This document shows, piece by piece, positions 2,083 through 61,600 of a DNA stretch of 64,000 nt (position 1 is its first letter; the number at the start of each line of letters is the position of its first letter). The DNA lies in assembly GCA_964057225.1 (NCBI GenBank), contig OZ059900.1:9238001-9302000 (forward strand), read 5' to 3'. The position numbers were made by a program, and so were the translations under genes. The notes beneath the pieces are model-generated. The model was not told where the DNA came from, searched no databases, and worked only from the letters and a program-made list of their open reading frames with translations. The stretch comes from Auanema rhodensis (lineage: Eukaryota > Animalia > Nematoda).

Positions 2083-3023
2083 CCTGAAAAAAAACATAAA
2101 AGCAGTCTATAAAATAAACACTAGACATGATTTTAGAAACATAATATGAAAGATAAAAGTAGAAAAATATAAATACCTCCTATTATAATATCTCCTTATA
2201 GAAAAAAACAGGTCAGCTGAATGCAATCACCTACAATTGAAGAAATTAAAGAGAAAATTAAGAAAAAATCAATAATATATACCCAGAAATCGAATTTAAA
2301 TTAATAAAATAGAAGACAATAATCAATAAATTTTAATTTGGAAAAATATAAGATGTTCAGGTGATTTTGAAAATTATGTAAATTTAGCAATAGAGCACAC
2401 AGTAAGAAAGTAATTGTAATATGGCTACAGTAACTCTCAGCATAAGATATAAACTCACTTGATCAAACAGAATAATATACGGCGAACGTAATGAGCGTGT
2501 TAGATATGATTATATTTCATTTTAGGTTCATATAATCAAGCTGTTTTCCATCATGCATTTGAGCAGTTACACATTCATGACCGCTTCCCTACTACTGAAA
2601 ATCACCGCAATAATATTCCGGGTAATTGGGAAAAATTTTCAACCAGCAATAAACGCATCTCGAACAAGCCTCATTGATAACTTTATCGCCACTGTCCAAA
2701 ACTAATGTTTTGAAAAGCTAAGACAGTACGCAATGTGTAAGCTAGGACAGTACGCAATGTGCCGTACATGGAAAAGTTTTTTTTTGTTCACATACATTAA
2801 ATTTTTGAAAACATTTATCTTCTTTTTCTTTGTTTATTCAATAACTTTAGACATAAAATTTAGTACATTTCAATTCGTTATATAATAAAATTTAGCTATT
2901 TGACATGGTATATATTTAACATATGTTTTAGTTATTCCCAATTTGAAAATAAAAACAATTTCACAATGACACGTTATTCTGAGAAACGGGTTAAAATTAA
3001 TATTAAAATAGCATAACCAGTAT

Positions 3024-6000: not shown

Positions 6001-6050
6001 TCAGTCCATATAAGAGTTAACAGGTGTAGTATTAGATATAATACTATCAT
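3024..6050 (-). CDS. syg-1: SYG-1 / KIRREL (Neph1/IrreC) Ig-superfamily adhesion protein, multi-exon
   Basis: Signal peptide MIVLYLILHLLTLIW; Ig1 GPQDTYVVIGRTAVLKCRV...VQWMKNGFGLGTDRELKFFSRYSI; further Ig domains (LACNVDAKP, FRCEAIGNPAPRIQW, LCKISGRPVPAEVKWSRDG); TM segment at about 3730-3785; C-terminus RPISRTSTHV* (PDZ ligand), as recalled for SYG-1. Confidence 0.93.
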
Positions 6051-36840: not shown

Positions 36841-38846
36841 ATGAAGTCTTTTCTGGTTGTCGCGAGTGCTTTTCTTCTCGTAAGTTACAAGCTTGTCTCA
36901 CACAGCATGTTAACCATCTTGTTTTAGGTTTCATTTGCATGTGCTAAGCGTGTTGATCCACCCGGAGGTGAATATGCTCCAAAATGCTTGATTGGTGATC
37001 CTGCAGGAGAAAACATTTACCATGAATCTGATGCTAATGAAGTAGGACTACATTTTTATCGCGAAACTATTTTCCTCTTTTTATTTTCACTATATATTAT
37101 TACTGTATATTGACATAATATTCAGGTACCTTGGTTTGATGTTGATCTTGATGCTCCCGCTAAGGAACGCTTCAAGCATGTTGTTCGCCCTTTGAAAAAT
37201 GAAATTCTTGCGGTCTTTGATGTGCTTGCCGTAGGTTTCAATTCATATTCTCCAATAGTAGCTCGTATCATTAAATTTACCTTTGAAAAATTTTGAAAGT
37301 AATGAAAACGATAAATCATTGAGATAAAAAAAATATAAGCAAGCGATCTCATGAATTCTTCTGCTATCAGCTGAATTAGACACGTTTCAATTGCCTTATC
37401 AACGTGAATAATGTTGATGAATATCAAACTATAGACTTTTGAAGATTTGATTTATTGTACACCTGATTTGGTAAATTATAGCTGTGAAACAAAAACTTTT
37501 CAATTCAATATAATAGAATAATCAATATATTTCAGGATTTTCTTACCATTATTCCCGGTATTCCAGTATGGGAGATGGTTGGAGAATTTATGCAAAAACA
37601 GTTCGATGAAGGTCGCATTATGCAGCCATATCGTGATGAAATTCAAGTAATTTGTAATGAACTATTGAAAACAAATAATAATTGTATATTAGGGTATTGC
37701 TGATGAACTTGAATGTAATTTGGGACAGCTAACCTTCTTAAATATCTTTTACGAACTCTCCCGATTCTGTACATCTATTATTGCCCAAACACCCGGAAAT
37801 CAAGATCTCTATCATGCCAGGTGAATTTTAAAATGCAATTATTATTTCTATAAATAATTTAATTTATAGAAATCTTGATTTTGGACAGCTTTTTGTCTGG
37901 AACATTACGACTCAATCTTGGGCACTTTCTGATGCCTTGAAAAAGGTCACTATCAACATTAACTATATGAAGGGAGGAAAACTTCTGTTCAAGGGAACAA
38001 CTCTTGCTGGCCACGTCGGTATCATTACTGGTTCGATTTTTACGCAGGGTTATGAGCAATTTATAAACATATTTTAAAGGTATGAAGCCAGGACAATTCT
38101 CTTTGTCAATGAATGCTAAAGTTGAACCTGATTATGCTAATGTATTCAAGTGGACACAGGGATTACTTCCTGATATTCGTTATGTCATGTTCTTTGAGCG
38201 TGAACTCTTCGAGGTTTGCGCAGACTTTGAGGTAAATAGCATCTATTTGTTCTCATAATTATGCATTTTCTAATGCTAAGTGTGCTCGCCAAAAAATTTC
38301 CGAAGTTCCATTGCTCTCTGGTGCATACTTTATTCTTGGAGGAAATAAGCCAAGTCAGAGATTTTTGCTAGATTGAATATTTATATTTGTTCTAATTTAA
38401 GAGCAGGGATCCGTAATTGTCCGTAATGTTACTAGCGTCCAATTTGAACGTAAACTCTATGATGGAGCTAACGATTGGTTCCTTCTCCAAACTAACTATG
38501 ATCCAGACAAAGTATGAGCAAATTTACAAAAAAAAAGGCAAAAATTCCACAAAATTTTGTAGGAACCATTATTCATTGATGACAGACGTGATCCAGGTAA
38601 TGCTTGTATGAAAAAAATGGGAATGAATGGAACTTCATCTGAAGGATTATTCAAGGTTAGATTTCTCTCATTTTTTTCATATTTTTAATGAAAATATGAA
38701 AAACAATAATACAATTTCTTGTTCAGGTGTTGAGTTCAAAGCCTACTTTAAATAAGACCACAATTCACACAGTTGTTATGTCTGTTACGAAGAATATCTA
38801 CATGACATTCATCAAGTACTGTCCAAATCCTTGCTGGGCTTTCTAG
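36841..38846 (+). CDS. asah-2: Acid ceramidase (Ntn-hydrolase, ASAH/NAAA family)
   Basis: Signal peptide MKSFLVVASAFLL; VPWFDVDLDAPAKERF; autocleavage site and nucleophile LNIFYELSRF|CTSIIAQ; HARNLDFG; LLQTNYD; DDRRDPG; VLSSKPTLNKTT; C-terminus CPNPCWAF*, matching recalled ASAH-2. Confidence 0.93.
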
Positions 38847-41240: not shown

Positions 41241-43696
41241 ATGGCTTCCAAGTTATCTCGTTGTTCACGGTTCAGGTAATCTTAATTAATATTTGATTAT
41301 TTCAAATTAATTTATTAAAGGGATGATATTGCTACAATTTTTGATGTATTAGTTGAAGTAACAGCACCAACGGAAAATGATTTACCGATTATTTTAACTA
41401 AATTCCCTGAAGATTTCAACGATGAACTAATTCTTAAGAGTGTACGTGAATTCTCGTTTCCAATAAAAAATGATAAGTAAGAACTTAAATGACAAGTATC
41501 AACTATATACGATCAATTAATTACAGATATAGTGTTGAAGCCGTTCAACTTTTTTGTTTTGTTTTAACTGATTCACATTCAAAATATACATTTGGTTTTT
41601 GTCGTTTTTCGCCTCGTAACAAGACGTGTCTATGTGTTTTAAGGTATTCTTTATCATTTTTTCTGGAAATAGTTTGTATTCTTATTTAACAGTGGTTTAC
41701 AATGGCCAGGATTTTTCCATAAACTTTTAAATGTTTTGTCTGTAATGACAATACATAATCATGTATGTTTTATATTTTTTAAGAAAATTATTTTCTTTAT
41801 TTATAGGATGATGAATTTAATAAATTGTTAAATCGTATCTATCACACCGATCTTCCCGGTGCTGGAGAAAAATTAAGTTTCCCTTATGGTCCCGGATCGA
41901 ATGTATAGCTTTCATGAAGTTTTATTTTCACTTTGTTTTTTTTTTCAGATTCTCCAATTTACCATACCAGATTCAAATGTACCATTGAATCTTCAAGAAG
42001 ATAAATTTATGTTAGAATTTGTAAATGCTTTAACTGCAAAGCAAATGATTGCTCTCTATGCTAGGTTAGTTTGTTCTCATATTTGAACTCTATTCATTTT
42101 ATTTTAGCATATTAAAAGAACGACGTATAATATTTACTGGTAGAAAATTAGGTGAAATAAGTAGTTGTGTATGTGCCATGGCAACATTATTATATCCAAT
42201 GTATTGGTAAGATTAAAAAAAATTCAAAAAAGATTTTGTTGTTTTTTCTCTTTCAGGCAAGGTATTTTCATACCTGTTTTGCCTGAACATCTTGCTGATA
42301 TGTTAATGGCTCCAATGCCATTTCTCATTGGTGTACCCAAACAAGTTATGCAGAAATTTGTGAGTTTTTGTATTCTTTGAGAACGCTTGGAAAAGTTTAT
42401 TCATTTTTAGAGCTCTGAAGAACTCGGTGAAATTGTGATAGTAGATTTGGATGATAGAAGTTTACAAAGTTCTGTTGACGATACAGCATTGCTTCCAAAC
42501 GAAGTATAATTTTAAATATTTTACGAAAAATATAAAATTCTTCTTTTTTTTTAGATTGTTTCATATCTCAAGAATGCTTTAAGTAAGACAAGTAATCTTG
42601 GAAATTCTATAGCCAAAGCGTTTTTGAGAACTAATTCAATGCTATTTGGAGGTTATCGAATGGGATTTACTCGCAATGAATCGACTGGAGTGAGTTCTAG
42701 TTGTGTATTGCATTAGCAATGAGATATAATTTGCAGAATATAACGTGGGACAGAGAAAAGTGGTTGCAATGCCAAAAGCCAAGTCAGCGATCATTTTTAA
42801 ATGCTATTTCGGGCATAGACGGCGTTCAATATTTGGAAAGAGTGTGTAATCATTTCTAATCTTTTCACCGCTTTCCTGTTTCTAGTTTGTTGATGTTAGA
42901 CTAAAGGAGATGAATGCTGGGTTAGCGTTTTCCGACGTATTCGATAATGACGTATGAACATAGAGTATTAGATAGCTGAAAATAATTATTTTTAGATTGA
43001 AAAAGGGGATAACGATTTATTAGCTAGTTTAAGAGGAAAAGTTTCTGGGATTCAGGTATTGAACTATAATTTTAGGCCTTCTTAATACTTGATATATAGA
43101 TTGCCAGTAAGCTAAACAAGTTAGCTCCTAGAGAACATCTCAGAAAAGTGCGGCGGTGGCCTCAGCAGCATGAAAGTCGTAAATCTTTTGATGTACAATC
43201 ATTCGAGAATGCAAGGCACATTCCAGTGGTAAAATATTTCTTTTTTTTTGGAATCTCATGGTTAAGTTTAGTCCGATTCACGAGGTAGTCCTGACAATAT
43301 CTCAGTTAATAGCTGCTCATCAGACCTCAGAAACGCATTTGTTCCTGTCGCCAAACTTATAGACTTTGACGAGCCAGAAACATCATCTTCAGTAAGACCC
43401 CTTGTAACATATATTTGTTTGAAATCGCTTTTCAGGCGCCGGGATCAAGATCACAATCGCAAACAAGGTTCTCAGCATTCCCAAGCCCTCCAACAATGAC
43501 TTCGCAATTCAAATCAGCAAGTAATTTGCTTGACAATTCTAGTTCGATAATGTGAGTAGCTAAACTTTGAAAAACGAAAAAAATATGTTTTAGTATGAGG
43601 CCAGTGTCAGATGGAATGCAAACTACTAGTCAAATCAATGCTCAGCACCCCAAAATAACACGAACTCCCCCGACTGGCTGGGTAAGGTTCGATTAA
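41241..43696 (+). CDS. rme-4: DENN-domain Rab35 GEF, DENND1/connecdenn orthologue
   Basis: uDENN (ILTKFPEDFNDELILKSVREFSFP; FCFVLTDSHSKYTFGFCR); DENN ([59 protein letters not shown]); dDENN (AFLRTNSMLFGGYR); tail with LIDFD and terminal GWVRFD*. Confidence 0.92.
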
Positions 43697-44305
43697 AGTC
43701 CCATACTCTCATAGGTGCATATTACTCAATCATTATATCTTCGCGAAAAATTCTTGTCACTTTTTCAACTGACTAGTCACGTTTGCTGTCATTCCGTTAA
43801 TGTCGTCATGAATGTAGTATGTAAGAAGTTTTTATAATATGAATATAACTTTTTTTTCAAATAAGAGGCTCAGATAATATATTTATATTTCAGTTTAATT
43901 ATGTAATATTGATAGTTATGTGTTTATGGGGAATAAAGTTTTCCATTTCAAATTCTATTTTTAAAACCCAGTTCAACGTTTTATTCGTTGCATTTGATTA
44001 TACCTACTTCTGCTATTCTTTGCTTACTTATCGTTTTTCGATTTTTTATTGCTATTTTCGTTTCAATTACTAATATACTTTATTACAGATCAAACAATGC
44101 TAAAAAAGGAAAGAATGCTCAATTCCGTCTTTGCATTAATATGAAAACTGTACATGGCTATGCGTATGCTCGAAATTAGGGACATTACTACAACCATAAC
44201 TACGATGGTTAAACTGACACACTACGGAAAAAAACTGAATGTTATTAGGAAGATGAATAGAAATGTTATATTATTCAAAAGAATGTTTCTTACATATGTC
44301 AACAA

Positions 44306-44593
44306 CTATTTTTGAGGGGGTTGTGGTGGCTGCTGAGGATGCTGATTCTGGTGAGGTTGATGATGATGTCTCTTTGCGAAAACGTACAGACAGTACCAGC
44401 GTGACAGAAAGACAATGGTTACCAGAAACCAGTAGAAAATGATCATCTTGATGGCTAATATGAAAATAAGCATTTTTTCTATTGTTAGTCATTAGAGCAT
44501 ACTTTTAAGCATGTTTCGATTCCGTCTCTCCTCATCATCTTGTTCGTTGACATCTTCAATAGCATCAAGATAGAGAAAACGTGGGCGAATCAT
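44306..44593 (-). CDS. Putative 79-aa single-pass membrane microprotein (two exons; may have upstream exons)
   Basis: Exons 44593-44503 and 44454-44306, joined by a 48-nt GT-AG intron, give MIRPRFLYLDAIEDVNEQDDEERRNRNMLKTIKMIIFYWFLVTIVFLSRWYCLYVFAKRHHHQPHQNQHPQQPPQPPQK*. A tctttcag acceptor lies just upstream. Confidence 0.55.
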
Positions 44594-47500
44594 ATTGAAA
44601 GCTTGTTCGAAATCGTCAAACCCTGAAAGATTTTTGTAATTTTTTTAGAGCGAAGCAAAACAGAAAATAAAGAAAGCATTAGTAAACATTGAACGTACTC
44701 TGAAAATTATAAAAAGCGCGTGAGCTAAATAAGAAGAAAGGATAACAAATGCTAGTACAATGAAGTTTTGATTTGTGAGAACCTTTCGTCGTGTATAAAT
44801 GTATTTATATAAGCTCATTGAGGGATGGACTTGATATATGTCAAAGATATTTGTAATTCAATAAACGTCTTGAAGGCTCTAGTCATGCATGTCTTTGGTT
44901 GAAGCCTGAATGCAATGTAATATATTCTGATAATCCTCAAATCTCAATCGAGCTACATACACTTTAAGAAATGCGGCCAACGATGAGAAATTAATCAATT
45001 GCATTAGCGTGTATGAAAAAGGTTTCGTAAGCCAATGTGAGTTGTCAAATGCATTTAGTACAAAATAAATGCAAAGATGCTAAAGCTGCTTTTAATTGAA
45101 TTTAATATGAGGATAAGGAGTTCTCACGTTTTAAATTTTAGTTTTGATGCGCAACGCACAAGCTGTAGACTTGTACAAAACATATTTATATGTTAATAAT
45201 TGAAGTAAGCTTATGCGCATGGCATGTAGAAAAAAGGAAATTAGATGTAATATAAGCTTTGACGAGATATAGCGGATGAGAGAGAGAGGAGTTAATTCGA
45301 ATTGTGGTTTGAGGATAATGCCTGGTATATCTACTGTTTGAAATGTAATCCGTGCTACAGCAGGGATTACGCTATGAGTCCAATGAAGGTTTCAAAGTTA
45401 TTCAAACTAATGTTGACGATCAAGCTTTAGTTATTTATATATATAATATTTCAAAAACTTTGTGTGAAGACTTAGAAGGGTTGTAGGAAGAAATAACATA
45501 TGATGATCGGTTTTCTAGTATTTTCGGCAAAAAATTGTGTACTGGAGTTGGTATGTACTAGTATTAGTCCAAATATGAAATACCAAAAGAAAAAAGGGTA
45601 TTTGCTGTCCATAATGATGCTAAAAACGTGCAATGAATTGAAATACTCTTCCGGGTCTTAACTAAATTAAGATAGCGAATAGTGAGATAACATGTGATCC
45701 TGTCCTAAATTGAAAAAGATAGCAGATTAAGACAATAAGATTACTACTCTGCTGATCGAAAGGATCAGTAAAGTTTGCACGAGTTGTTTAGTTCATAAAT
45801 ATTCATGCGAAACCATTATTCTGAATTACATAAGCTTTTTTTGATGCTGAAACGTCGAAATGTCTTTTCTTTGTTATAGAAAAAAATTAAGAAAAGAAAC
45901 GATGGGATAAAAGGTATAGATTGAAGATTACTAGTTTTTAAAACTGCCAAAGTTGGCAAGTATGTGAGATAATATGTAATATGAAAGAAAACTTAGAAGT
46001 AAATGAGATGCGTTGTGGAAATGGGCTGGAACGCTAAGACCGAAATCGAAATGTGTACGTGAAAATAATCGTTTTAAAAGTTATTTAGCAGAAGCACTCC
46101 AAACAAGAATATACTTAGAGTTTCTGATCGTTTGACTACTTTTAAGAAGACCTTTATATGGAAGTGATGTGTGAAAGTTGTTTGTCCTGACCCGCGTGTT
46201 GAATGAATTTGATTTGTCAGCTTCATCTAAGAGATATATAATCCTGGCAAATTTGAATGCAGCTGTGCTATTTGGGTTGTATGTATAATTAGGAATAGTA
46301 AAGAGAATACTTGAAAAGCAGCAAGAGATCACGGGAATGACTCTTGAATGAAAGCATGTAGGTATGTAATAAGCGCAGCTCCAATATTAATGAAATGCGA
46401 CTAGGCTCGTGCGTATAACTGCTCATTATAAGGGAAAGGGGGGGGGGGTTTATTAAGTAAACCGACTGCACATTCATAATCCGGAAAGTATGTATTTACT
46501 TCCTTATTAAAATTAGTTTTGGATGTTGAAATGCAAGCATATAGAGTGTTCCTCATGACGATATACTACAATCAAACTGAATTTATCCGTTTAACTTTGA
46601 ATTTAATTTCGATAGCAAATTTGGCAGAGTTAGGCTCACCTTGTTAGTTTATTATTATAATTTTTTTTGGAAAAATTAAACAACAAAGAAGAAGACGGAT
46701 AATAAATCAGCGCAGATGTTCATCTTGTTTCTCCGAAACTTTTCATTTCCTTATTAACCTTTTTTTTTCATCGTTGGTATATGAACAGCAAAAAGGTTGT
46801 TCAGGAATCTGCAGAATAATGATGAAAAACAGGGCTGCAAACTCAGTTAAAGTCAGACATGTGAAGCAAAAACGATTCATTGATTAAATGACTATCTAGG
46901 ATAATTGGATGAGATAACCTTGAAAAAGCAATGAAATATTCGAAAAGTCAGAAGATATATCGAAAAGTCACACAAAACAATCATCATAGTTAAATGCAAA
47001 ATTATTTTGCAATCTATCTGTATCTTTTTTCTCTTTCAATCTTTTACTATCTCTTTTTGCCAGTCTACATATCGCTATTAGAATAATATATCCCAATATA
47101 CAAGAATTAATATTAATGTAATATTTTTGAATATTTACAGCATTTATTTACAAGCCCATAAATTATATACATTTATGCAATGACAAGATATGCTGATTAG
47201 TTTGTTCTACATATAACACGGTATTCAATTTGTCCTTTTCAAGTTTCAAACATCATATCAAATTTCACATGTTTTACTTCAAGATAGTAAGATACCCAGA
47301 TAAAGCTGACGTTGAAGTTATATAATTTTTTTCACTATTTTTTACTAATATCATGGAAAATTGAACGCAATGAACTTTATTATAAAAGGTTACATTCATA
47401 TAATATACTTAAGCAGTTAGTAAAATGTTGTTGAGCGATTTTATGAGATTATGAGCTTTATCAACCTTCCCGCATCTTTTGTCTGGGTATTAGCAAAAAA

Positions 47501-48382
47501 ATTAAAAATTTGCCTAAAAGCTCAGGATGTTCATACTTTGATTTTATGAAATATTTGGCATTTTTACGTCGTTCATCCAATTTATTAATAAAATACTGAT
47601 TATGATTTCCGTTTTAATTCCAGCCAATTTCCTCTAAAGGCCGAGGGATATTAAGAATTATTCCAAAAATAATTTTTTTACCGAATCAAAAAGGTTTACG
47701 TAATTCATTGATGTGCGTAATCTCATCACAGGACCTAATCTCAAGTAATTCTCTATTTAAATATAATTTTTAGTTCTCTCTATGTGAATTAATTTCCATT
47801 CTTCTATATTTTGCATATAAACCTAAAGCACATGTATGTTGCCTGCAAGAGTGCTCTAAACAAATGCAGATTTCACTTAAAATGAAAAATGTCTATTTGA
47901 GATGCTTCTATCTGAATTCAAATTCTTTACCCTTTTATCCTGTAAATAATAGAGCTGCTGCGGTTTTCTAATACTTCTTTTATACTATTTTTCACTCTTT
48001 TCTTTATCAATTTTATATTTTCCGATCAAACTACAAAAAAATGAAAAAAATTTGATGACCTAATCATAATCTTAATTGTCATCCAATTTTTTCAGTTCAC
48101 ATAGCTTTTGTTTGAATAATGTCATCTACAATTGTTCCGTATTTTTTTTTGGCAAATTATGCAGAGCAGACAATGCTGACAGTTATTGAGGAAATATTGC
48201 CGGCACTTACCACTTGATTGTTCACTGATGCTTTTTTTCTTTTTTTTTAGGTTTCCCGTATGTTTTATTCAAATTTAGAATAGTTTTTTATATTGTTTTT
48301 CTCACAGATAATGCATATGCTAATCTGATTTTTTTTTTACAAAAGTGCAAGTTTTATAGCATAAGTATTGCAGGCAGTCATA

Positions 48383-49568
48383 ATGTTTCCTGTTCTCTTT
48401 GTTAACAAAATCGATGAGGAAATTCCTTTAGAAGTAAGATTACCCATTTTAATTAATCTATTTGACTGCAAATTTTAGACTTTTCTTAGCAGTCGTGAAT
48501 TTGATCCTTCATTAAAGCAACTTGAGAAAGCTTTACTTAATTGCTGCCCAGGCTGTACATGTGAAGGTTATCCTTATCTAATGAAACAGACAGATAGTTA
48601 AATAATGTTCAGATAATTGTATGGATAGTTCAAAATGTGAATGCCAGAAAACAACTGTGAACATAGCGAAAGGTTTTAGGCCTGAACTGACTGATTCATC
48701 ATTAATGAGGTATGAATTAAACCAACAAGAATATATTGTCATACAATTACAGATATAATAATCGAAAGCTGACACTCCCTCTTCGTACGGGTTTATTCGA
48801 GTGCAATAAAAACTGTAAATGTCAGTGGAATATTTGTCCTAACCGTGTTGTTCAGCTGCCTTTTAGCTATCAAGTTCCTGTTACGGTATGAGTTTTATTT
48901 TACTTTTTGTTCTTAATTGAAGCTGAGCTAAGGTTCGCCGTACTCCAATACACTGGGAACTCTGCGCTACAAGTGATATACCAGCCGGAACTTTCATTTT
49001 TAACTACCTTGGCGTGGTGCACGCAAGTGATACAATGCTTCAAGAAGATATGCGTCCTCCAAACTGTTTGAGATTAGACTTGGCGTATAAGGTTTGCTTT
49101 TATATGCTCTGAAACTTGAAAGTAAACTCAAGGATTCTATTTTTAGTTTGCAAAGAATATCTCTAGTTCTCAAGAGAAGATAAAAGAATGGTTAGCATAT
49201 CAAATTAGTATATTATCATGATAACTATAATATTTAGCTTTGAAAGTGAAGAAGTTTCTCAATTTATGTTGAATGAAAACAATATGTTCTACATTCGAGG
49301 TGGGTTGAAAGGAAATGTTGGACAGTAAGTGGAAAACTTCAAAAAAATGATTATTAGTGAACTTTACTCAACAGATTTATGAGTTATTCTCCCCAGCCTA
49401 ATATGAGAAAAGAATACGTGTTTGTTGACACTCATGACTTTCGTTTTCCATGGCTATCTTTCTTTGCAAATCGAGATATCGAGGCAGATGAGGTATAGTA
49501 TAGATATAATTCGTTTAATTTTGTATATTTTCCCAATTTTTCAGCCACTAACATATGACTTCAAATGA
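48383..49568 (+). CDS. SETDB1/MET-2-like pre-SET + SET protein, divergent, no post-SET domain
   Basis: Spliced: MFPVLFVNKIDEEIPLE|TFLSSREF...CCPGCTCE|DNCMDSSKCECQKTT...|YNNRKLTLPLRTGLFECNKNCKCQWNICPNRVVQ...|VRRTPIHWELCATSDIPAGTFIFNYLGVV...|...GNVG|QFMSYSPQPNMRKEYVFVDTHDFRFPWLSFFANRDIEADE|PLTYDFK*. The VFVDTHDxRFPW motif is characteristic of SETDB1. The start codon is uncertain. Confidence 0.85.
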
Positions 49569-49984
49569 TTAAACTGGAAAAGTTTTAAAACAAGATACAA
49601 AAAATAATATAAAGAATGTAATTCATTGAAAAAAGAATTTATTATTAATTATATCAAAAAGCATAGTATGTATGTAGTTTGGACAATATAATTTCTTATT
49701 TAACACTATGATCTCTCATTAGTACTAACTCAATACTTAGTTTTTGTTTTTTGCTTATTCAATAAACTTTAGTTTTAATTTTTCTGTTAAAAATGAAATG
49801 TGGATATGAGTTTAAACAAAAAAAAAACAAGAGCTGCTTCAATGAATGTTGTTTTATCGAAAAAAAGTGGAAAAGTTCACGAGAAATTATGTGGTTGGGC
49901 GGAGTCTAGCTATTCAACTGACACTTACAACCACTGAAACAGCTGTGGCTACAATATACAGAACTAGTGGTAGTTTTTTTGTCA

Positions 49985-51267
49985 ATGGAGACGGCGGATT
50001 ATGATCAGAATATGGATTCAACTGAAGATGGTGAGTGTTTCTCATTTCTCTGTTTAAAAATTATTTATTCTAACCGTAATGCTGAAAAATTGATATATTT
50101 TGATTTTTTTTACAAAAGTTCAAGTTTTATCAAAAACTTTTTTTAAAATCATAACAGAAAATGCTTTTATTTGTGATAATTTAATATGAAACATTATAGG
50201 AAGAAAAAGACGATGTCGAACAAACTTTACTGAAGCTCAATCCGTATTTTTGGAACAAACATTTCAAGAATCACATTATCCAGATCAAGCAACTAAAAAG
50301 ATTCTTTCTGATAAACTGGGAATTCCTGAAGATCGTATAACGGTAACCTTTCTATTAACATTTTCAAATTCGTTGGTTTCTTGCTATCAGATATCATTCT
50401 AATTTTTTTTAAATTAAAAAAAAAACAAAAACATTTTGCGATCAACCTAAATTAATAAATTTGGATCTATGCTAGCTATTCTATCATATTGAATTATAAT
50501 GTTCAAAGTTTCTTATATTTTTTCATCAACCGAAGCATTGCAAAAACAGAAGTTGGAGAGGCGGAAATCGTTTCTTTACAGCTAAATGTGCTGGATTCCA
50601 CGAGCTATCGAGAATACGGGGACCTGTCCTAACATCTGGGGCCAGACACCAAAGTGTTGCGATTGGCACGGTATTATATTGCAATTTCTGCTGTTATCCC
50701 TGAATTTCACACGTGTTGCAAACATCCCATCGACATTTACAGCTTTTTGATCTCTTAGTAAAGCTAGTGTATTGGAAAAGGGGACTTTTTATTGCTCTTG
50801 TATAACCATGGGATTTTGGTAAATGAGCTCATATAAAGAGCTGCCGATGACCTTTCCCAGACCTAATAGCCAACTGCTACCAGTTGTAGAACTTGTATCC
50901 TAATCCTGTAACAGATGAAAAATACCAGCAAAATGGATATTAAAAAATACTGTCAGCGTTAAACTTCTGAAATAATAATGTTTTAACTTATAGCCTATTT
51001 GCAGGTTTGGTTTCAAAATCGTCGAGCGAAATGGAGACGTAAAGAACAGCGAGAACGCGTAAGTTTTCCTATTCAACTAAGCATATCTTTAAAATATATT
51101 TATTATAGAACATTCAAAACAATCAAGAAAAGCTCTATGCCAAAACATATCCTACAACAGATTCAATGACATCACATTATGATTACACACCCAGTGTTGA
51201 CACATTATATTCTAATTACTGTTATAGCAATAACTGTTATTTGGATAATGATCACAAAGAGCAGTGA
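49985..51267 (+). CDS. ceh-54: Paired-like (Q50) homeodomain transcription factor, CEH-54-like
   Basis: Exons 49985-50030, 50200-50342, 51005-51058 and 51109-51267. Homeodomain RKRRCRTNFTEAQSVFLEQTFQESHYPDQATKKILSDKLGIPEDRIT|VWFQNRRAKWRRKE. The homeobox call is secure; the symbol rests on the recalled ESHYPD/IPEDRITVWF signature. Confidence 0.85.
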
Positions 51268-52490
51268 ACTATTCTACTAATTGAAATGGAGCTTTGCATT
51301 TGTTTGGTTAATTATTTCGTATAAGTTAACAGCGTAGTTATTTAGCTCTTATCTGTATACTAACTTATATTATGAACTGTTTCTAAGATGATAGTTTCAA
51401 CTTATTTTCAAAACTTTTGAAATTATGATAGATAACGTGTACTATTTCTGATTATATTGGACTTTCTAGACTTATTCTCTATGATTGGAATAAATATCTT
51501 AAAATTTTGGAAAGAAAATTGAAAAATATTACAATTAATTGTCTCTTAAGCATTATTTGATTGTTTATTATATAGTGAAATGTATAGTTTATGATAATTT
51601 CTTTTTCAGATATAAAATTGAACCATGTGTTTAAAGAAAAAACAAAAATTAATTGTTTCTATATTTTTACATCATTATCAGAATGATTGAAACATTTTGA
51701 ATGCTTTGGAATTTCAAGAACACAGCTTCAACATAGCATCAATTGGAACTATTGTAAAATCCAGATGTTTCTTCTAAATACATTAAGAAGATGTTCTCTG
51801 GAATGTAGATGGTAAAATATCCGTTCGAAAATATAAATCAACACTAATTGAACATTTTGAGTGAGTAGTATAGAAAATGCAGCGCACCTTTTTGACTTAA
51901 TTCGAATCTGCACATTCCAGCCATTTTTATGCTTTTGCGAAGAGTAAATACTTATTTGCTGTCGTTCTTATTTTACAACTTGAGTTGAAAAGGCAAACAA
52001 CTACAACAGCAAGCTCCATACTATACCATTGAGCCATTCCAATATTTCGAAGAAGTAAGAAGTAAGACTCCTCAAGAGTTCTGGAAGAAAAATATTGATC
52101 GTTTCTAACACAATTTACAAAATGATCTTGAGCATCTGAATTTTCACTTTAATCTTGAAAATAAAAACTTTGTTTTCAATTTTTCATTACTTCCACTTAA
52201 GTTGCAGTGATTTCGAAAGAGAAAAATACGTTGCTTCGGTCTTAATCTAACCAGAGAGCTTTAACTGAAAGCATTTTCGCTTAATTTGACAAGATATTTT
52301 AAAATAAGAATAACATAGTTATATTATTTTTTTTAAACTTATTGTCTTAATAAACAAAAATTATAGCTAGTTATATGTACACTTAATCTATTGGTCTTTA
52401 TTCATTTTTATATTTATTTATTTATAGTTTATCATATATGTAGTATGAATTATCTTATTATATATTTTATATTTTATAGTTAATTCATAT

Positions 52491-52562
52491 AACATCTTAG
52501 TATAATGGTTGTATTTCAGTTATAGTAAGGTGCACTTGTAGGTTCAAATCCTACAGTGATAT
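52491..52562 (+). pseudogene. tRNA-derived module 1 (A box + B box), left arm
   Basis: 72 nt with canonical tRNA spacing: TA-GTAT-AATGGTT-GTAT D arm and GTAGG-TTCAAAT-CCTAC T arm. The acceptor and anticodon stems do not pair. Confidence 0.7.
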
Positions 52563-52605
52563 CAAAGAAAATTTAAAATATCTCTCTCTCTCTCTCTCTA
52601 ATATA

Positions 52606-52641
<36 letters not shown>

Positions 52642-52824
52642 AAATAGATAGATATCTCTATAATCAGACACTTGGCCAAGATACTACAGAACGGAGTTAA
52701 AGCTTCAAAAATCATAAAGAAAGTCTGGAATTCAAATTGATCTCGACTCCATTGTTTCGAAAAAGTTTTTATTTCAAATACTCTTGTCACTCTTCTTATT
52801 TGCGATTAAAACATTAATATTATA

Positions 52825-52900
52825 AGCCAAATGGTCGAGTGGTCTGTATGGTAAACGCTTACAATCGAATGTAAAGGTACGATCCCTTTCTGCATTTTTT
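52825..52900 (+). pseudogene. tRNA-derived module 2 (Val-TAC-like loop) with T6 terminator, left arm
   Basis: A box TGGTCGAGTGG, loop CTTACAA, T arm AAAGG-TACGATC-CCTTT, then TTTTTT. Acceptor and anticodon stems are degenerate. Confidence 0.65.
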
Positions 52901-54833
52901 ATGAAAATCAATACCAAATCGAAAATCCAAAAAACGCTTCGATGGATTTGGACCTCGAAAAAGCCATTTTTTTGAAATTCCAAAGCTTATAACTCTGTTC
53001 AAAATCGATTTTCTCGAAAACTTATTATATCATCGTGCAACCCAGCAATATACCATCCTTTTCACAAAAATTCAAATCTATATCTCACCTCACTCAGTAG
53101 TTATTCTTCTTCAAAACGAACACAAATATTCAAAAACTTAACTTTAAAGGCCGTTATCTCCTTACTCCTTCAAGTTATCAAAAATTTCTAAACGGATTCT
53201 AAACCTACTCAACACGATCTATCACATAAACTACTTATATGGAAGTTTGAAGCACTTTGAATTTTTGAAAAATCAAGAATTTAGCCATTTTTCAGTTTGA
53301 GAAATAAAAAATTTGCATTTTCTTTGTTTTGAGTGATGCATCAGAAGCGCATTGAAACGCAGATTCCAAATATGAAAACCTTAACTTCCAATTTTCACTC
53401 TGAAAAGAGTTACGAGGCTTTAAAAGTTCTGACGTCAAACATTCAGAAGGCTATATCTCCTTTCAGACAGCGTTTTAGAGACTCCTAAGTATCAGAATCG
53501 TTTTCTACGCCATTGATTACCCTTATGTAATCATTTTCAAAGCGTTTCCTCAAAATTTTCGAAATTCGATCGAATCGTCTGATTCCATGTACTCCCCCCT
53601 TACCTACTTTCCGACCAAAATTGGCCTTCACTCAAAAAATATTTTCAGTTTGAATCGATAATTATATGATATAATTAGGGTGACACTGAAATTTAAGAGA
53701 TAGAATAACATGAATATTCATCTTCAAACTCTTGAGTTCCGTAGTTGCATCATGGTAACTTAGATTCTATTACGTTTTAACCAGGATTTCCAAGACTTTC
53801 GTCAAACAGTACGTAAGAACAGGAAACATTTCAGGAGGAATCAGGACTAGCACTGACAACTCTTCAGAAAAAGTTTGAGAATGTGTTTGATTCATGTGGA
53901 TCCAACAATACCATGTAATTCATTTTGATGTTTTCTGTTCTCACGTACTGTTTGACGAAAGTCTTGGGAATCCTGTTACCATGATGCAACTGAGGAATAC
54001 AAGAGTTTAAAGATGAATATTCATGTTATTCTTTCTCCTTAACTTCATTTTGATTCTAATTATATCATATAATTATCGATTCAAACTGAAAATATTTTTT
54101 GAGTGATGGCCAGTTTTGGTCGAAAAGTAGGTAAGGGGGGAGTACATGGAATCGAACGATTTGATCGAAATTTATAAATTTTGAGGAAACGTTCTGAAAT
54201 TGATTACATAAGGTCAATCAATAGCGTAGAAAACGATTCTGATACTTAGGAGTCTCTAAAACGCTGTCTGAAAGGAGATATAGCCTTCTGAATGTTTGAC
54301 GTCAGAACTTTTAAAGCCTCGTAACTCTTTTCAGAGTGAAAATTGGAAGTTAAGATTTTCATATTTGGAATCTGCGTTTCAATGCGCTTCTGATGCATCA
54401 CTCAAAACAAAGAAAATGCAAATTTTTTATTTCTCAAACTGAAAAATGGCTAAATTCTTGATTTTTCAAAAATTCAAAGTGCTTCAAACTTCCATATAAG
54501 TAGTTTATGTGATAGATCGTGTTGAGTAGGTTTAGAATCCGTTTAGAAATTTTTGATAACTTGAAGGAGTAAGGAGATAATGGCCTTTAAAGTCAAGTTT
54601 TTGAATATTTGTGTTCGTTTTGAAGAAGAATAACTACTGAGTGAGGTGAGATACAGCTTTGAATTTTTGTGAAAAGAGGGGCCTATTGCTGGGCTACAAG
54701 ATAATATAATAAATTTTCGAGAAAATTAACTTGAAACAGAGTTATTAGCTTTGGAATTTAAAAAAAATGGCTTTTTTGATGTCCAAATCCATCGGAGCGT
54801 TTTTTGGATTTTCGATTTGGTATTGATTTTCAT

Positions 54834-54909
54834 AAAAAATGCAGAAAGGGATCGTACCTTTACATTCGATTGTAAGCGTTTACCATACAGACCACTCGAC
54901 CATTTGGCT
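54834..54909 (-). pseudogene. tRNA-derived module 2, right-arm mirror copy
   Basis: Reverse complement of 52825-52900. Confidence 0.65.
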
Positions 54910-55092
54910 TATAATATTAATGTTTTAATCGCAAATAAGAAGAGTGACAAGAGTATTTGAAATAAAAACTTTTTCGAAACAATGGAGTCGAGATCAATTT
55001 GAATTCCAGACTTTCTTTATGATTTTTGAAGCTTTAACTCCGTTCTGTAGTATCTTGGCCAAGTGTCTGATTATAGAGATATCTATCTATTT

Positions 55093-55128
<36 letters not shown>

Positions 55129-55171
55129 TATATTAGAGAGAGAGAGAGAGAGATATTTTAAATTTTCTTTG

Positions 55172-55243
55172 ATATCACTGTAGGATTTGAACCTACAAGT
55201 GCACCTTACTATAACTGAAATACAACCATTATACTAAGATGTT
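55172..55243 (-). pseudogene. tRNA-derived module 1, right-arm mirror copy
   Basis: Reverse complement of 52491-52562 (gtaggatttgaacctac). Confidence 0.7.
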
Positions 55244-56027
55244 ATATGAATTAACTATAAAATATAAAATATATAATAAGATAATTCATACTACATATAT
55301 GATAAACTATAAATAAATAAATATAAAAATGAATAAAGACCAATAGATTAAGTGTACATATAACTAGCTATAATTTTTGTTTATTAAGACAATAAGTTTA
55401 AAAAAAATAATATAACTATGTTATTCTTATTTTAAAATATCTTGTCAAATTAAGCGAAAATGCTTTCAGTTAAAGCTCTCTGGTTAGATTAAGACCGAAG
55501 CAACGTATTTTTTTTTGTACCGTTCTCATCCTTTCTAGTAGTAAAAAATATGGCAAGCTTTCTATCCCGTGTCATTATACGAAAACGGAGTCGTGTAACT
55601 GGTGGTAGAGTTTTCCGAACCTAATCCACAGCATCAAATTAAAGGCTGAGTGTGTGCCGTAGTGATTTATTGGCTTATCTAATCGAGAAAGTTGGAAACA
55701 TTTTTTAAACTTTTTGTGAAAGTGTGTATTGAAATTTTGTTTCAATAAGTATTCATTATATTCATTAAAAACGAAAAAACGAACAAGTACAAACAAACAG
55801 AAAAACCTAAATATTTGAATTAAAAAGGAAGAAGAAATTAGAAATCATTATGCAATGCAAACAATAGCAGATCAAAATATGTATTTTTCTTTGAGTATTG
55901 TGCATGACGAACCAGAATAAATATGTGAACAAGAGTTCAATTTAAAATGTACTGGAAGAAAATAAAATTTCACGTAAGTGTGATAATATATTAAAAGATC
56001 ATTTACAGGATAAGCATTGAATTTGAT

Positions 56028-58615: not shown

Positions 58616-61600
58616 TCATGCCTCTGCATTAGCCAAAATTGGTTCGCACGGTGTAGAAGCCTAAAATTCAACTATCAAAGTTTTCAAAAAAAAAAGGACA
58701 AACGTACAGGTGCCTGATGACCGTCTTTATTCTCAGCCAGAGAACCAGTAATTGCTACCGTAGGTGCAGCTGCCCCATTCGGTGAAGAGAGATGTTCCAT
58801 TGGAAATCCGTGCTTACTATTAACATTACGACTTTCAGGAACATATGTGCGTTCACTCTCCACACGTTCACGTCGTTTCCTGAAAAAAACACAAATACAT
58901 TTAACAATTCAATAACATCATAACATACTTGAAGCATTCAAATGGAACCTTACTCAGCTGTCGCTTAACGGCTATTTGAATTTCGCTATTCAAAAAGCAG
59001 TAAAGTACAGCAATGAATATTCCCTAAATAGAGTTCGTTATATAAGGTTTTCATTATGTATATCAGATACCTGTGAATGCTGTAATATAGCTGAAACTAG
59101 CATGTAAGCAGCACTAGGCTTTTCTGGCTCATAAAATAATGGAATGTTGGAGATACCTAGTAGAGGAACTAATAGCAATGTTGATTTGATTGTTCGCCTT
59201 AAATTTACTATTACTATAATGATAATTCAGTGGTTACTAACCATATTTTTTTTGATTCAGCTGTTCGCTCGTCACGTAATTTTTGTACCAAAATGGATAC
59301 AATTCCAAGAAGAAAGATTAAATTCATCTACAAAGAAACATTTAATTATAGATAACTATATTTGAAACTAACTATCAAAGCAAGTCCTATTGATCCGGCT
59401 AAAATCCATAAATGATTTCCTTGTGCATATGGCAACCAACAGAATGAATTCGCTTCCTGCTTTTGCTCATGTACAATTGTCCAGGCCATAACTATCAAGA
59501 ATGGTATACCTGTATATGCATAAAATTAACCTATACTTTAAAACCGATCATACCCCATCCACATAAAATGAAAAGCATCCATGGAGCATCGTTATGACGC
59601 ATAGCAAATACCGTAAAACGACTATATAAGTATGCTCCTTCAATCAGCATCCACATGACGGATGCAACTTGAAAATATATAACACACCATAGAATTGCTT
59701 TACAAATCCATTCCTGTAAAACAAAATATTTTTTTAAAAACATTTCTACATATTTAAAAAAATTCAAACTTACATATTCCCACAAGGGCTGCGGATGAAA
59801 TTTAGTACAATCTTGAAAAGCGTTTGTAGTTTGAACTATTGTCCATGCAGCTAAAACAGCAAATCGAAATACGAAAGCCGTTGCTAAGTTTTTGTGAATC
59901 GAAAGACGACGGCACTACAATAATAATTAGATTATGATTATAATAAAGAAATCAATCTACTTGAAGTGAATCAAACACTGAAAATAGAACGATTGCTGCA
60001 ACAAGCACAATAACCGAAATCACAGATAATGTTAATGAAACTGATATAACTAAATCTCTTAATAAGTCGGGGCACTGAAAATAAATTATAAAATATGGAG
60101 AATATGAAGAAAAAAATCTTAAAAAATAAAAATTACAACTCACTAATCTACAATATCCTTGAATACAATGTTGATATTCCTTAACAACAGTTAAGCATTC
60201 ACCGTAATTTGTATTTTCCCAATCTCCACTATTTGTACATTGTCGTGTAACCATATGTCTCTCTGTAGTTATTAATATATAAAATTATAAATTTAAAGCT
60301 TCTGAAGTTTGAACTTGTCAATATTTTAATTACCAAATATAATATTATTATAGAAATGTAAATAACTATATTTATATAATTGTTTATAATATATTAAATA
60401 TTATAAGATATACTTAACTTGTTAATCTTAATTGATTAACAAGCAAACATATGTTTTTACTAATAGTACAACGAATGTTTTTAATTTTTGATATGTCTTC
60501 AACTTCACCAACTGTTTGATGAATGATTTACTATGAACAACATTTCTTCTTGACAATTTAAACAGAGCAATTTATCGCATAGTCATGTATGTGTAAATAC
60601 CAATGGATTTTGACCCCAAATTAAAACAAAAGCAGGAAGTTGAGGAAAGTATGCTCAACTAGATCAGAACATTAATTTTTTTTTGATAGATATAAAGTAT
60701 TTTAAATTTTCGAGAAATAAACTATTATTCACAGTGGTTGCACTGTATTTTTTGATTGAAATATCCATGTCTTGATCTAATATTTCTACATTTTTAACCC
60801 AGCTCTAGACTAGATAACTGGATGAATAGCCAGCTTTTAATTTGTATACAGAGACAAAGAAAGGCTTTTTTTCTCAATATACATCTATATTACTCATGGT
60901 TAATGACGCGTGAAACACTGCAAAGATGAAAGTTTAAAGAAGACTTGGCAAAGTACGAAATGATTAAGTTGACAAGATGAATTACTTCAAACATACAACA
61001 TTCTTCTAAAGTACTACATTTCAAGATGTTTAAAAATTATAAATGGTTAATCTAGATAAAGTGATAAAGAAGCCTTTTTTAAAAAAAAGTAATTAATTTT
61101 AAAAATTTCTTACTCAACCAGCTGTCTATACTCCCCCCCCCCCTCTCCCTTTACTCTTCATTTCTTTCATCTCATTTCATTATTCTCTCTCTTTATCATG
61201 AAACGCGTTTTTTTTCATCTCAGGCGGTTTTAACACTAAGAGTATTTACGAGCAGGTGTTGCACTAACAACAAGTACCAGTTTGTAAGAATTGTCGATTT
61301 CATCGCTCAAAATGTGACCAGAAAGATGAATTGAGTAATCTCAATAATCAACATATACGACTCAAAGTTCGAAAATTGCCTTTAATTATCCCGAACTTCT
61401 CAACGTTTTTCTAAAGACATTTTACGATGTCGCTATAAAATGATTCTTAAATCTAAATATACGCAATCACGTCTCAAATATCAATTGCACAGCAATTTGT
61501 AATTGAAATAACATAATGGAACTATTGGCATCACGGAACTGAATGCCTTCCAAAATTAACTTCTGGCCGGTTGTAACATTTTTTTAAAGATGTAGTAAAC

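What the first reader, a model, noticed from the sequence alone, without database searches (positions are those of the whole stretch)
48383..49568. Probable pseudo-methyltransferase: miniature SETDB1/MET-2 paralogue with intact pre-SET but degenerate catalytic motifs
Seen: all nine pre-SET cysteines and the SETDB1-type VFVDTHDFRFPW are kept in an open, fully spliced frame. However, GWG has become HWE, RxxNHSC has become QFMSYSP, ELTWDY has become PLTYDF (catalytic Tyr to Phe), and the protein stops before any post-SET CxCx4C. No Tudor/MBD domain or large SET insertion is visible. Known: NHSC, the terminal Tyr and post-SET zinc are needed for SAM binding and catalysis in the SUV39/SETDB1 family; plant SUVH2/9 are inactive SET adaptors. 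Inference: a non-catalytic H3K9-pathway scaffold, reader or decoy.
Basis: partly seen in the sequence, partly recalled or inferred. Interest (0 to 1): 0.7.

Follow-up and report, generated by a model that had tools for sequence, protein, structure and literature searches.

The report
Expressed dead MET-2-like histone methyltransferase
A nematode makes a fully spliced messenger RNA for a small 266-residue relative of the gene-silencing enzyme SETDB1/MET-2 that keeps its zinc-binding cysteines but has lost the cofactor-binding and catalytic residues, so it is likely an inactive enzyme copy that would act as a protein-binding partner.

Summary
The gene has nine coding exons (48383-49568) and encodes 266 aa. 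Public RNA-like contigs show all 8 introns, a spliced-leader end 9 nt before the ATG, the stop and the 3' UTR. The missing MBD/Tudor and post-SET are therefore real in this transcript.

All nine pre-SET cysteines are kept. The cofactor and catalytic motifs are lost selectively: 3 of 11 family-invariant positions kept, against 31 of 38 elsewhere (p=0.0014). This pattern, an open frame and expression argue for a constrained pseudo-methyltransferase, not a decaying copy.

The nearest relative is not full-length MET-2. It is a Tudor-less, short-insert, catalytically intact MET-2-like model from Auanema sp. JU1783 (38% identity; sister in trees at 92-94/81-93, not decisive).

The I-SET substrate groove is also degenerate. 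The regions where LIN-65 and ARLE-14 homologues bind are absent. An H3K9 reader or classic MET-2 scaffold role is therefore unlikely, and a plain protein-interaction module is the best guess.

No equally degenerate orthologue was found. Genome, dN/dS, structure and activity could not be tested. Dead SET proteins are known (SUVH2/9, Set3 group, SET-24); I found none described from the SETDB1/MET-2 line.

The parts
48372..48382 (+). Trans-splice acceptor (AG at 48372-48373) and 9-nt 5' UTR
   Evidence: The X1 contig carries a 20-nt loose end at 48372 that I recognise as the nematode SL1 leader (label recalled); the X2 contig also begins at 48372
48383..48433 (+). Exon 1, aa 1-17: start of the N-SET/pre-SET region; no MBD or Tudor before it
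48479..48566 (+). Exon 2, aa 18-46: first pre-SET CxC (C43, C45)
48613..48709 (+). Exon 3, aa 47-79: pre-SET C49, C55, C57
48753..48885 (+). Exon 4, aa 79-123: pre-SET C96, C100, C102, C107 and NRVVQ
   Evidence: Pfam Pre-SET E 4e-5, below the curated cut-off as a fragment; SUV39H2 is the best PDB hit
48933..49091 (+). Exon 5, aa 124-176: degenerate motif I (HWE for GWG), intact core with YxG, degenerate I-SET
   Evidence: Pfam SET E 0.008
49147..49190 (+). Exon 6, aa 177-191: short remnant of the SET insertion
49238..49324 (+). Exon 7, aa 191-220: ends in GNxG; the Arg of RxxNH is replaced by Gln (codon split by intron 7)
49375..49492 (+). Exon 8, aa 220-259: destroyed NHSC (SYSP), then the well-kept SETDB-type VFVDTHDxRxPW segment
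49545..49568 (+). Exon 9 coding part, aa 260-266: PLTYDFK then TGA; catalytic Tyr replaced by Phe; no post-SET
   Evidence: The joint at 49490/49543 is seen in X1 and X2
49569..49704 (+). 3' UTR as far as the X1 contig reaches
   Evidence: table 8

Best explanation
The gene is an expressed, trans-spliced nematode paralogue of the SETDB1/MET-2 line that keeps its pre-SET zinc ligands and SET core but has lost the cofactor pocket, the catalytic tyrosine and the post-SET, so it likely cannot methylate and would act as a small folded protein-interaction module. Shown: transcript structure, open frame, absent MBD/Tudor/post-SET, selective motif loss. Inferred from known SET chemistry: no SAM binding and no closed lysine channel, because the adenine- and methionine-contacting motifs, the NH pair, the fourth post-SET zinc ligand (the C of NHSC; recalled) and the whole post-SET are gone. 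Inferred: it arose by duplication of a Tudor-less, short-insert MET-2-like gene of the kind seen in Auanema, then lost the MBD, the post-SET and the active site while selection kept the fold. Least certain step: the kept pre-SET/SET-hairpin body binds a protein partner, most plausibly an active SET paralogue or one of its partners, and bridges or titrates it, as the dead pre-SET-SET of plant SUVH2 binds POL2A.
For: Spliced contigs at 99%+ identity with no differing letters, 8 of 8 introns in 2 of 4 runs, and a leader 9 nt before the ATG. Columns at least 90% conserved in 131 homologues: pre-SET 17 of 18 kept, other SET 14 of 20, cofactor/catalytic motifs 3 of 11. Fisher p=0.0014 against all other columns, p=0.03 against the other SET columns only, and p=0.011 if P228/N229 are counted into the motif. 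At columns at least 70% conserved, the zinc cluster (22 of 26), SET-N core (6 of 8) and hairpin (16 of 22) are kept about as well as in the intact Auanema relative (23, 6, 18). Random point mutation to 20% amino-acid change leaves the frame stop-free in 1.2% of 2000 runs, and stop-free with all 9 Cys in 0.2%; indels and splice sites were not counted. Precedent: SUVH2/9 lack the post-SET and activity, and SUVH2 binds POL2A through its pre-SET-SET (PMC9564942, passages). SET-24 lacks NH and Y, is inactive in vitro and binds HCF-1 partly through its SET domain (PMC12886896, abstract and passages).
Against: No orthologue with the same degeneration among the 131 homologues examined. Direct exon searches found nothing, so conservation of the dead state across species is not shown and dN/dS was not obtainable. 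The kept positions are mostly fold-stabilising (Cys, Gly, Pro, aromatic), so they show a kept fold, not a kept binding surface. Six other invariant SET positions are also changed and the terminal branch is long (1.7 changes per column), which also fits relaxed constraint. The motif classes are standard but were fixed after I had seen the changes. No basic cluster resembling a nuclear localisation signal was found, and the pI is 5.6. Expression rests on one study whose runs are only guessed to be RNA. No partner, localisation or phenotype is known.
Confidence: 0.55

Rival explanations
1. A duplicate in decay: a truncated copy of an active met-2-like gene that is still transcribed but no longer under selection.
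For: It has lost the MBD and the post-SET and has a long terminal branch. No conserved dead orthologue was found. Changes also hit non-catalytic invariant positions (6 of 20).
Against: The frame is open over 266 codons with 8 working introns, a leader and a 3' UTR. Loss is concentrated in the cofactor motifs (p=0.0014), and a stop-free frame is rare at this divergence in the neutral simulation. No second transcript at 80% or more nucleotide likeness was laid on the gene body, so no very recent parent was seen in these contigs.
Confidence: 0.17
2. A histone-tail reader or decoy that binds H3K9 (or another lysine peptide) in the old substrate groove without SAM and shields it from methylation.
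For: The YxG tyrosine (Y148) and one groove aspartate are kept. Catalytically dead SETDB1 can block G9a/GLP at centromeres (review PMC13108219, passage).
Against: The groove is built from I-SET and post-SET (PMC3178901). The post-SET is absent, the I-SET keeps 1 of 8 conserved columns, the acidic DEYFAxLD stretch is replaced, and the net charge is -2 against -5 to -7 in the four strongylid/Caenorhabditis MET-2-type proteins.
Confidence: 0.12
3. A MET-2-type non-catalytic scaffold that forms heterochromatin foci with LIN-65 and ARLE-14.
For: Catalytically dead MET-2 (C1237A) still forms foci and represses genes (PMC8850192, passages).
Against: LIN-65/ATF7IP homologues bind the SETDB1 N-terminus and ARL14EP binds the MBD. 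The leader-capped transcript starts at the pre-SET region, and no MBD remnant was found in the window.
Confidence: 0.06
4. A residual or partner-completed enzyme, with the missing post-SET or catalytic elements supplied in trans or by a rare isoform.
For: The SET core and one active-site tyrosine are kept. Contigs drop rare isoforms.
Against: No NHxC or post-SET coding sequence exists in any frame of the locus. Eight of 11 invariant motif residues are changed, each to a residue seen in at most 1% of homologues. A single Cys change in the conserved SET motif (C1237A) makes MET-2 catalytically deficient for H3K9 methylation.
Confidence: 0.04

Closest known systems
Auanema sp. JU1783 CAI4230478.1, residues 1-523 (P0001; gene model fused to a topoisomerase II-like sequence)
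   Same: Best match: 38% identity over 284 columns, 182 bits. Short SET insertion, no Tudor by Pfam, same pre-SET and DTHD-R-PW segments. Sister to the query in both trees (92/81, 94/93).
   Different: It keeps an MBD, GWG, RFFNHSC, ELSWDY and a post-SET CxCx4C, so it looks catalytically competent (its YxG Tyr is Phe). It is followed by a topoisomerase gene, not a homeobox gene. Orthology is not established, and its model may be incomplete at the N-terminus.
C. elegans MET-2 / human SETDB1 (KMT1E) and SETDB2
   Same: Nine-cysteine pre-SET, SETDB-type sequence signatures, and higher scores than SUV39/EHMT-type proteins.
   Different: No Tudor, no MBD, no large insertion, no post-SET, destroyed cofactor motifs; 266 aa against about 1000-1300 (length recalled).
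Arabidopsis SUVH2/SUVH9
   Same: H3K9-methyltransferase-derived pre-SET-SET without post-SET. SUVH2/9 are reported inactive and act as adaptors; SUVH2 binds POL2A through its pre-SET-SET.
   Different: SUVH2/9 carry an SRA methyl-DNA reader that gives targeting. This protein has no accessory domain and is of SETDB, not SUVH, descent.
Set3 subfamily pseudo-SETs (yeast Set3/Set4, UpSET, MLL5/SETD5, C. elegans SET-9/26, SET-24)
   Same: Lack the NH motif and the catalytic Tyr; act through protein partners.
   Different: Different SET lineage; most carry PHD domains and SET-24 has SPK domains; no pre-SET zinc cluster (recalled).

Membership tests
SETDB1/MET-2 H3K9 methyltransferases | Pre-SET domain with nine zinc-ligating cysteines | tested here: met
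   9 of 9 Cys; 17 of 18 invariant pre-SET columns kept
SETDB1/MET-2 H3K9 methyltransferases | SETDB-type sequence signatures and best similarity to SETDB/MET-2 over SUV39/EHMT | tested here: met
   182, 157 and 138 bits to nematode MET-2-type proteins against 54-65 bits to the 7 SUV39/EHMT-type proteins scored; VFVDTHDxRxPW kept
SETDB1/MET-2 H3K9 methyltransferases | Phylogenetic placement inside the SETDB/MET-2 clade | tested here: inconclusive
   Sister to the Auanema protein at 92/81 (36 rows; 3 fragmentary rows dropped) and 94/93 (19 rows), unstarred, on a long branch. AU tests do not reject grouping with the SUV39/EHMT outgroup (p 0.115) or with strongylid MET-2 (p 0.113)
SETDB1/MET-2 H3K9 methyltransferases | N-terminal Tudor and MBD domains | tested here: not met
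   Leader-capped transcript begins 9 nt before the ATG at the pre-SET region; the MBD/linker profile has no hit better than E 0.24 in the window
SETDB1/MET-2 H3K9 methyltransferases | SET domain split by a large insertion | tested here: not met
   Spacing 90 aa against 124-406 in most MET-2/SETDB1 models checked; the Auanema (100) and Acrobeloides (82) models are also short
Active SET methyltransferases (SUV39/SETDB class) | GxG motif I, RxxNHSC and ELxxDY with the catalytic Tyr | tested here: not met
   3 of 11 invariant positions kept
Active SET methyltransferases (SUV39/SETDB class) | Post-SET CxCx4C zinc module | tested here: not met
   Stop at codon 267, confirmed in the X1 contig; no post-SET peptide downstream
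Active SET methyltransferases (SUV39/SETDB class) | SAM binding and lysine methylation | not testable with these tools
   Needs biochemistry
SUVH2/9-type inactive adaptors | Pre-SET-SET without post-SET | tested here: met
SUVH2/9-type inactive adaptors | SRA domain and plant SUVH descent | tested here: not met
   The whole 266-aa protein aligns to the pre-SET-SET of SETDB-type proteins
Set3-subfamily pseudo-SETs (SET-9/24/26, MLL5) | Set3-type SET domain with PHD or SPK domains | tested here: not met
   It has a pre-SET and SETDB signatures, and there is no room for other domains
Pseudogene | Broken frame or lost splicing/expression | tested here: not met
   Open frame; 8 of 8 introns spliced in X1 and X2
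Pseudogene | dN/dS near 1 | not testable with these tools
   No orthologous or parental DNA was obtainable

The most novel reading that the evidence does not exclude
A first natural, minimal dead paralogue of the SETDB1/MET-2 line: a bare pre-SET-SET body, kept by selection, that pairs with or titrates an active MET-2-like paralogue and so tunes H3K9 methylation in a nematode lineage that has extra short MET-2-like genes. It would reveal a protein-binding surface on the SETDB catalytic module itself, separate from the known LIN-65/ARLE-14 sites.
Probability: 0.15. Interest if true: 0.7.

Novelty: new variant of a known kind. Interest (0 to 1): 0.4.

Why it matters
All described non-catalytic work of MET-2/SETDB1 that I read about runs through the N-terminal, Tudor or MBD regions or the full-length protein. 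A gene that keeps only the pre-SET-SET body, without activity, would be a natural experiment asking what that body does besides catalysis. At 31 kDa it should be easier to express than MET-2, which PMC8850192 describes as hard to purify. Importance is limited for now: one unnamed species, no orthologue, no partner, and dead SET proteins are already known in other lineages.

Tried and rejected
(1) No whole genome is held for this window, so a full-length met-2 or parent paralogue could not be looked for.
(2) Homologue searches with single exons 5 and 4 against longer proteins gave 2 and 5 candidates, none scoring; this is weak evidence of absence. The 50%-cluster search with exon 4 gave 14 hits, 3 of them spurious. 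The profile search listed 120 of 446 hits and was limited to 17-625 aa, so full-length MET-2 proteins were not sampled and an orthologue could lie among the 326 unlisted. The metagenome scan with exon 5 found no relative.
(3) No RNA holder is on record as RNA; the four runs are guesses. Contigs cannot give level, tissue, sex bias or rare isoforms. The lack of cover at 45002-48341 is not used as proof that no longer isoform exists.
(4) A 32-codon ORF at 48119-48217 behind a TTTTCAG was considered as a lost upstream exon: no Pfam hit, no MBD profile hit, no contig cover. Rejected.
(5) No structure model of the spliced protein was made; only single exons were available to the folding tool and they are too short. 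The SAM-pocket argument rests on sequence and literature.
(6) The atlas search with exon 5 gave only generic SET clusters. With the Auanema protein it gave MBD-preSET-SET and SETDB2 clusters.
(7) Three look-ups of earlier findings returned nothing.
(8) Nine paper searches listed no natural inactive MET-2/SETDB paralogue. Most hits were seen only as listings, subscription papers are missing and no supplements were opened. P. pacificus has two members in the met-2/SETDB orthogroup (PMC11075575, passage), not characterised in what I read.
(9) A link to programmed DNA elimination (H3K9me3 on eliminated DNA in Auanema rhodense, bioRxiv 10.64898/2026.08.27.747507, passages) was considered and dropped: the window's species is unknown and the paper has no mention of methyltransferases.
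(10) Of 117 homologues covering the motif, 9 lack NH. Seven look like gene models running into an intron, and two (P0023, P0073) change only the His; none resembles this protein's degeneration.

Full report
Observation. The window is AT-rich nematode DNA (31% GC; taxon inferred from the spliced leader and the protein hits). The finding is a + strand gene with nine coding exons: 48383-48433, 48479-48566, 48613-48709, 48753-48885, 48933-49091, 49147-49190, 49238-49324, 49375-49492 and 49545-49568. Eight GT-AG introns of 43-55 nt separate them, giving an open 801-nt frame of 266 aa. Four public runs of one study, guessed to be RNA, hold the stretch. Their contigs skip exactly these introns (X1 8 of 8, X2 8 of 8, X3 6 of 8, X4 2 of 8) at 99%+ identity with no differing letters. 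The 968-nt X1 contig begins with a 20-nt loose end at 48372 that I recognise as the SL1 leader (label recalled) and runs through the stop to 49704. The mRNA seen therefore starts 9 nt before the ATG and ends after a 3' UTR of about 136 nt, and the odd residues are neither assembly errors nor edited away. Contigs cannot exclude rare isoforms or give expression level.

Anatomy. Single exons match Pfam Pre-SET (E 4e-5) and SET (E 0.008, 0.05), all below the curated cut-offs as fragments. They also match SUV39H2, G9a and GLP in the PDB. All nine pre-SET cysteines are present. GWG reads HWE, RFxNHSC reads QFMSYSP, ELxWDY reads PLTYDF, and the protein stops one residue later. No NHxC or post-SET-like peptide occurs in any frame of the gene or downstream. 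Profiles of the MBD/linker (built from 22 homologues) and of the post-SET find nothing better than E 0.24 and 0.68 in the whole window; 30-aa control pieces of a training sequence scored 14-32 bits, which is an optimistic control.

Relatives. The 50%-cluster search with exon 4 returned 14 proteins. The best is residues 1-523 of Auanema sp. JU1783 CAI4230478.1, a model fused to a topoisomerase II-like sequence. It has MBD, pre-SET, a short-insert SET and post-SET, and no Tudor by Pfam. It aligns over the whole query at 38% identity and scores 182 bits, against 157 for strongylid MET-2-type models, 138 for C. japonica, 81-120 for the other SETDB1/2 proteins printed and 54-65 for seven SUV39/EHMT-type proteins. 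A profile search listed 120 of 446 hits of 17-625 aa, nearly all SETDB1/eggless/SETDB2; none is a close or equally degenerate orthologue. Trees on 241 columns (insertion removed) place the query as sister to the Auanema protein at 92/81 (36 rows; three fragmentary rows dropped) and 94/93 (19 rows), on a long branch of 1.7. Neither support value is starred, and AU tests reject neither grouping with the SUV39/EHMT outgroup (p 0.115) nor with strongylid MET-2 (p 0.113). Descent from the SETDB/MET-2 line is therefore well supported by similarity and signatures, while the exact parent is only probable. The GWG-to-RxxNH spacing is 90 aa here, 100 in Auanema, 82 in an Acrobeloides model, 124-176 in strongylid/Caenorhabditis models, 386-406 in bird/mammal SETDB1 and 59-97 in SUV39/EHMT types. 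The small insertion and the lack of Tudor are thus probably inherited from an already compact paralogue, provided the Auanema model is complete.

Is the loss selective? In an alignment of 131 homologues (4 of 135 dropped: 3 spurious hits, 1 near-duplicate), 49 columns covered by the query are at least 90% conserved. The query keeps 17 of 18 in the pre-SET, 14 of 20 in the rest of the SET, and 3 of 11 in motif I, RxxNHSC and ELxxDY. Fisher p is 0.0014 against all other columns and 0.03 against the other SET columns, and 0.011 if the P and N of NHSCxxPN are counted into the motif. Six further invariant columns lie outside the protein, three of them the post-SET cysteines. The motif classes are standard (PMC3178901, parts 1-2 of 4 read, for NHS/CxxPN, ELxF/YDY, the catalytic Tyr and the groove of I-SET plus post-SET; GxG recalled), but I fixed them after seeing the changes. 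By segment, at columns at least 70% conserved, the zinc cluster (22 of 26), SET-N core (6 of 8) and DTHD-R-PW hairpin (16 of 22) are kept as well as in the intact Auanema protein. The first SET strands with motif I (1 of 9), the I-SET (1 of 8; Auanema 3 of 8), RxxNHSC (1 of 5) and ELxxDY (2 of 5) are not. Random point mutation of the frame to 20% amino-acid change, about the loss seen at conserved non-catalytic columns, leaves it stop-free in 1.2% of 2000 runs and stop-free with all nine cysteines in 0.2%. Together with eight working introns and a leader, this argues against simple decay. It is not a dN/dS test.

How it most likely works. Shown: an expressed, bare pre-SET-SET open frame with a destroyed active site. 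Inferred from SET chemistry: it cannot bind SAM or close a lysine channel; in MET-2 the single change C1237A in the conserved SET motif already brings H3K9me2/3 down to null levels (PMC8850192, passages). A histone reader needs the I-SET/post-SET groove, yet the post-SET is gone and the acidic I-SET stretch is replaced (net charge -2 against -5 to -7 in four MET-2-type proteins). The focus-forming scaffold role of dead MET-2 needs LIN-65 and ARLE-14, whose homologues bind the N-terminus and the MBD, both absent here. What is left is a folded zinc-stabilised body. I commit, at about 0.55, to a constrained pseudoenzyme acting through protein binding, by analogy with SUVH2, whose inactive pre-SET-SET binds POL2A (PMC9564942, passages), with SET-24, whose dead SET helps bind HCF-1 (PMC12886896, abstract and passages), and with G9a/GLP, which dimerise through the SET region (bioRxiv 10.1101/2021.05.05.442822, passages). 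The partner is unknown; an active SET paralogue is only my best guess. The kept residues may reflect folding alone, and no obvious basic nuclear signal was found. Rivals are decay (0.17), reader/decoy (0.12), MET-2-type scaffold (0.06) and residual enzyme (0.04).

Comparison and novelty. It works like the known pseudo-SET adaptors but belongs to none of them: it has no SRA domain and is not of the Set3 lineage. It descends from the SETDB1/MET-2 line but fails that family's domain and catalytic tests. Nine literature searches listed no natural dead MET-2/SETDB paralogue; most hits were seen as listings only, no supplements were opened and the library is partial. I rate it a new variant of a known kind. 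Interest is 0.4: real, cleanly documented and testable, but known from one unnamed species with no orthologue, partner or phenotype.

Noticed in passing
window 52222-55512: A 3.3-kb near-perfect palindrome: arms 52222-53759 and 53975-55512, 1538 nt each, 96% complementary, with a further 48-nt inverted pair near the centre and (TC)n tracts in the arms. It could be a foldback/long-TIR element or an assembly feature. No contig cover at 52016-54000.
   Followed up: no
window 49975-51330 (+): A spliced paired-like homeobox gene (Pfam Homeodomain E 6e-11; three introns seen) starts only about 280 nt after the 3' end of the SET transcript on the same strand. An operon-like arrangement is possible but untested.
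   Followed up: partly
window 48331-48357 and 50104-50130: A 27-nt sequence (96% identical) occurs just upstream of the SET gene's trans-splice site and again in intron 1 of the homeobox gene. There are only these two copies in the window, and none in 100 shuffles.
   Followed up: partly
window 44087-44699 (-): A spliced transcript on the minus strand (CT..AC intron at 44455-44502 in 3 of 4 runs); the overlapping 77-aa frame has no Pfam hit.
   Followed up: partly
P0001 (Auanema sp. JU1783 CAI4230478.1): The public model fuses a Tudor-less, short-insert MBD-preSET-SET-postSET protein to a topoisomerase II-like sequence, probably two genes merged. Its YxG active-site Tyr is Phe and its I-SET is atypical, so it may itself be an undescribed MET-2 paralogue with altered specificity.
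   Followed up: partly
window 1621-2106 (-): A 161-codon uninterrupted frame, unusually long for this intron-rich genome, with no Pfam hit.
   Followed up: partly
window 3400-6100 (-), 13866-14223 (-), 23882-24900 (-), 37114-38700 (+), 41300-43600 (+), 59000-60300 (-): Ordinary neighbours by Pfam on one exon each: an Ig-domain protein, a small heat-shock protein, a ligand-gated ion channel subunit, an acid ceramidase/NAAA, a DENN-domain protein and a secretin-family GPCR. The extents are rough estimates.
   Followed up: partly
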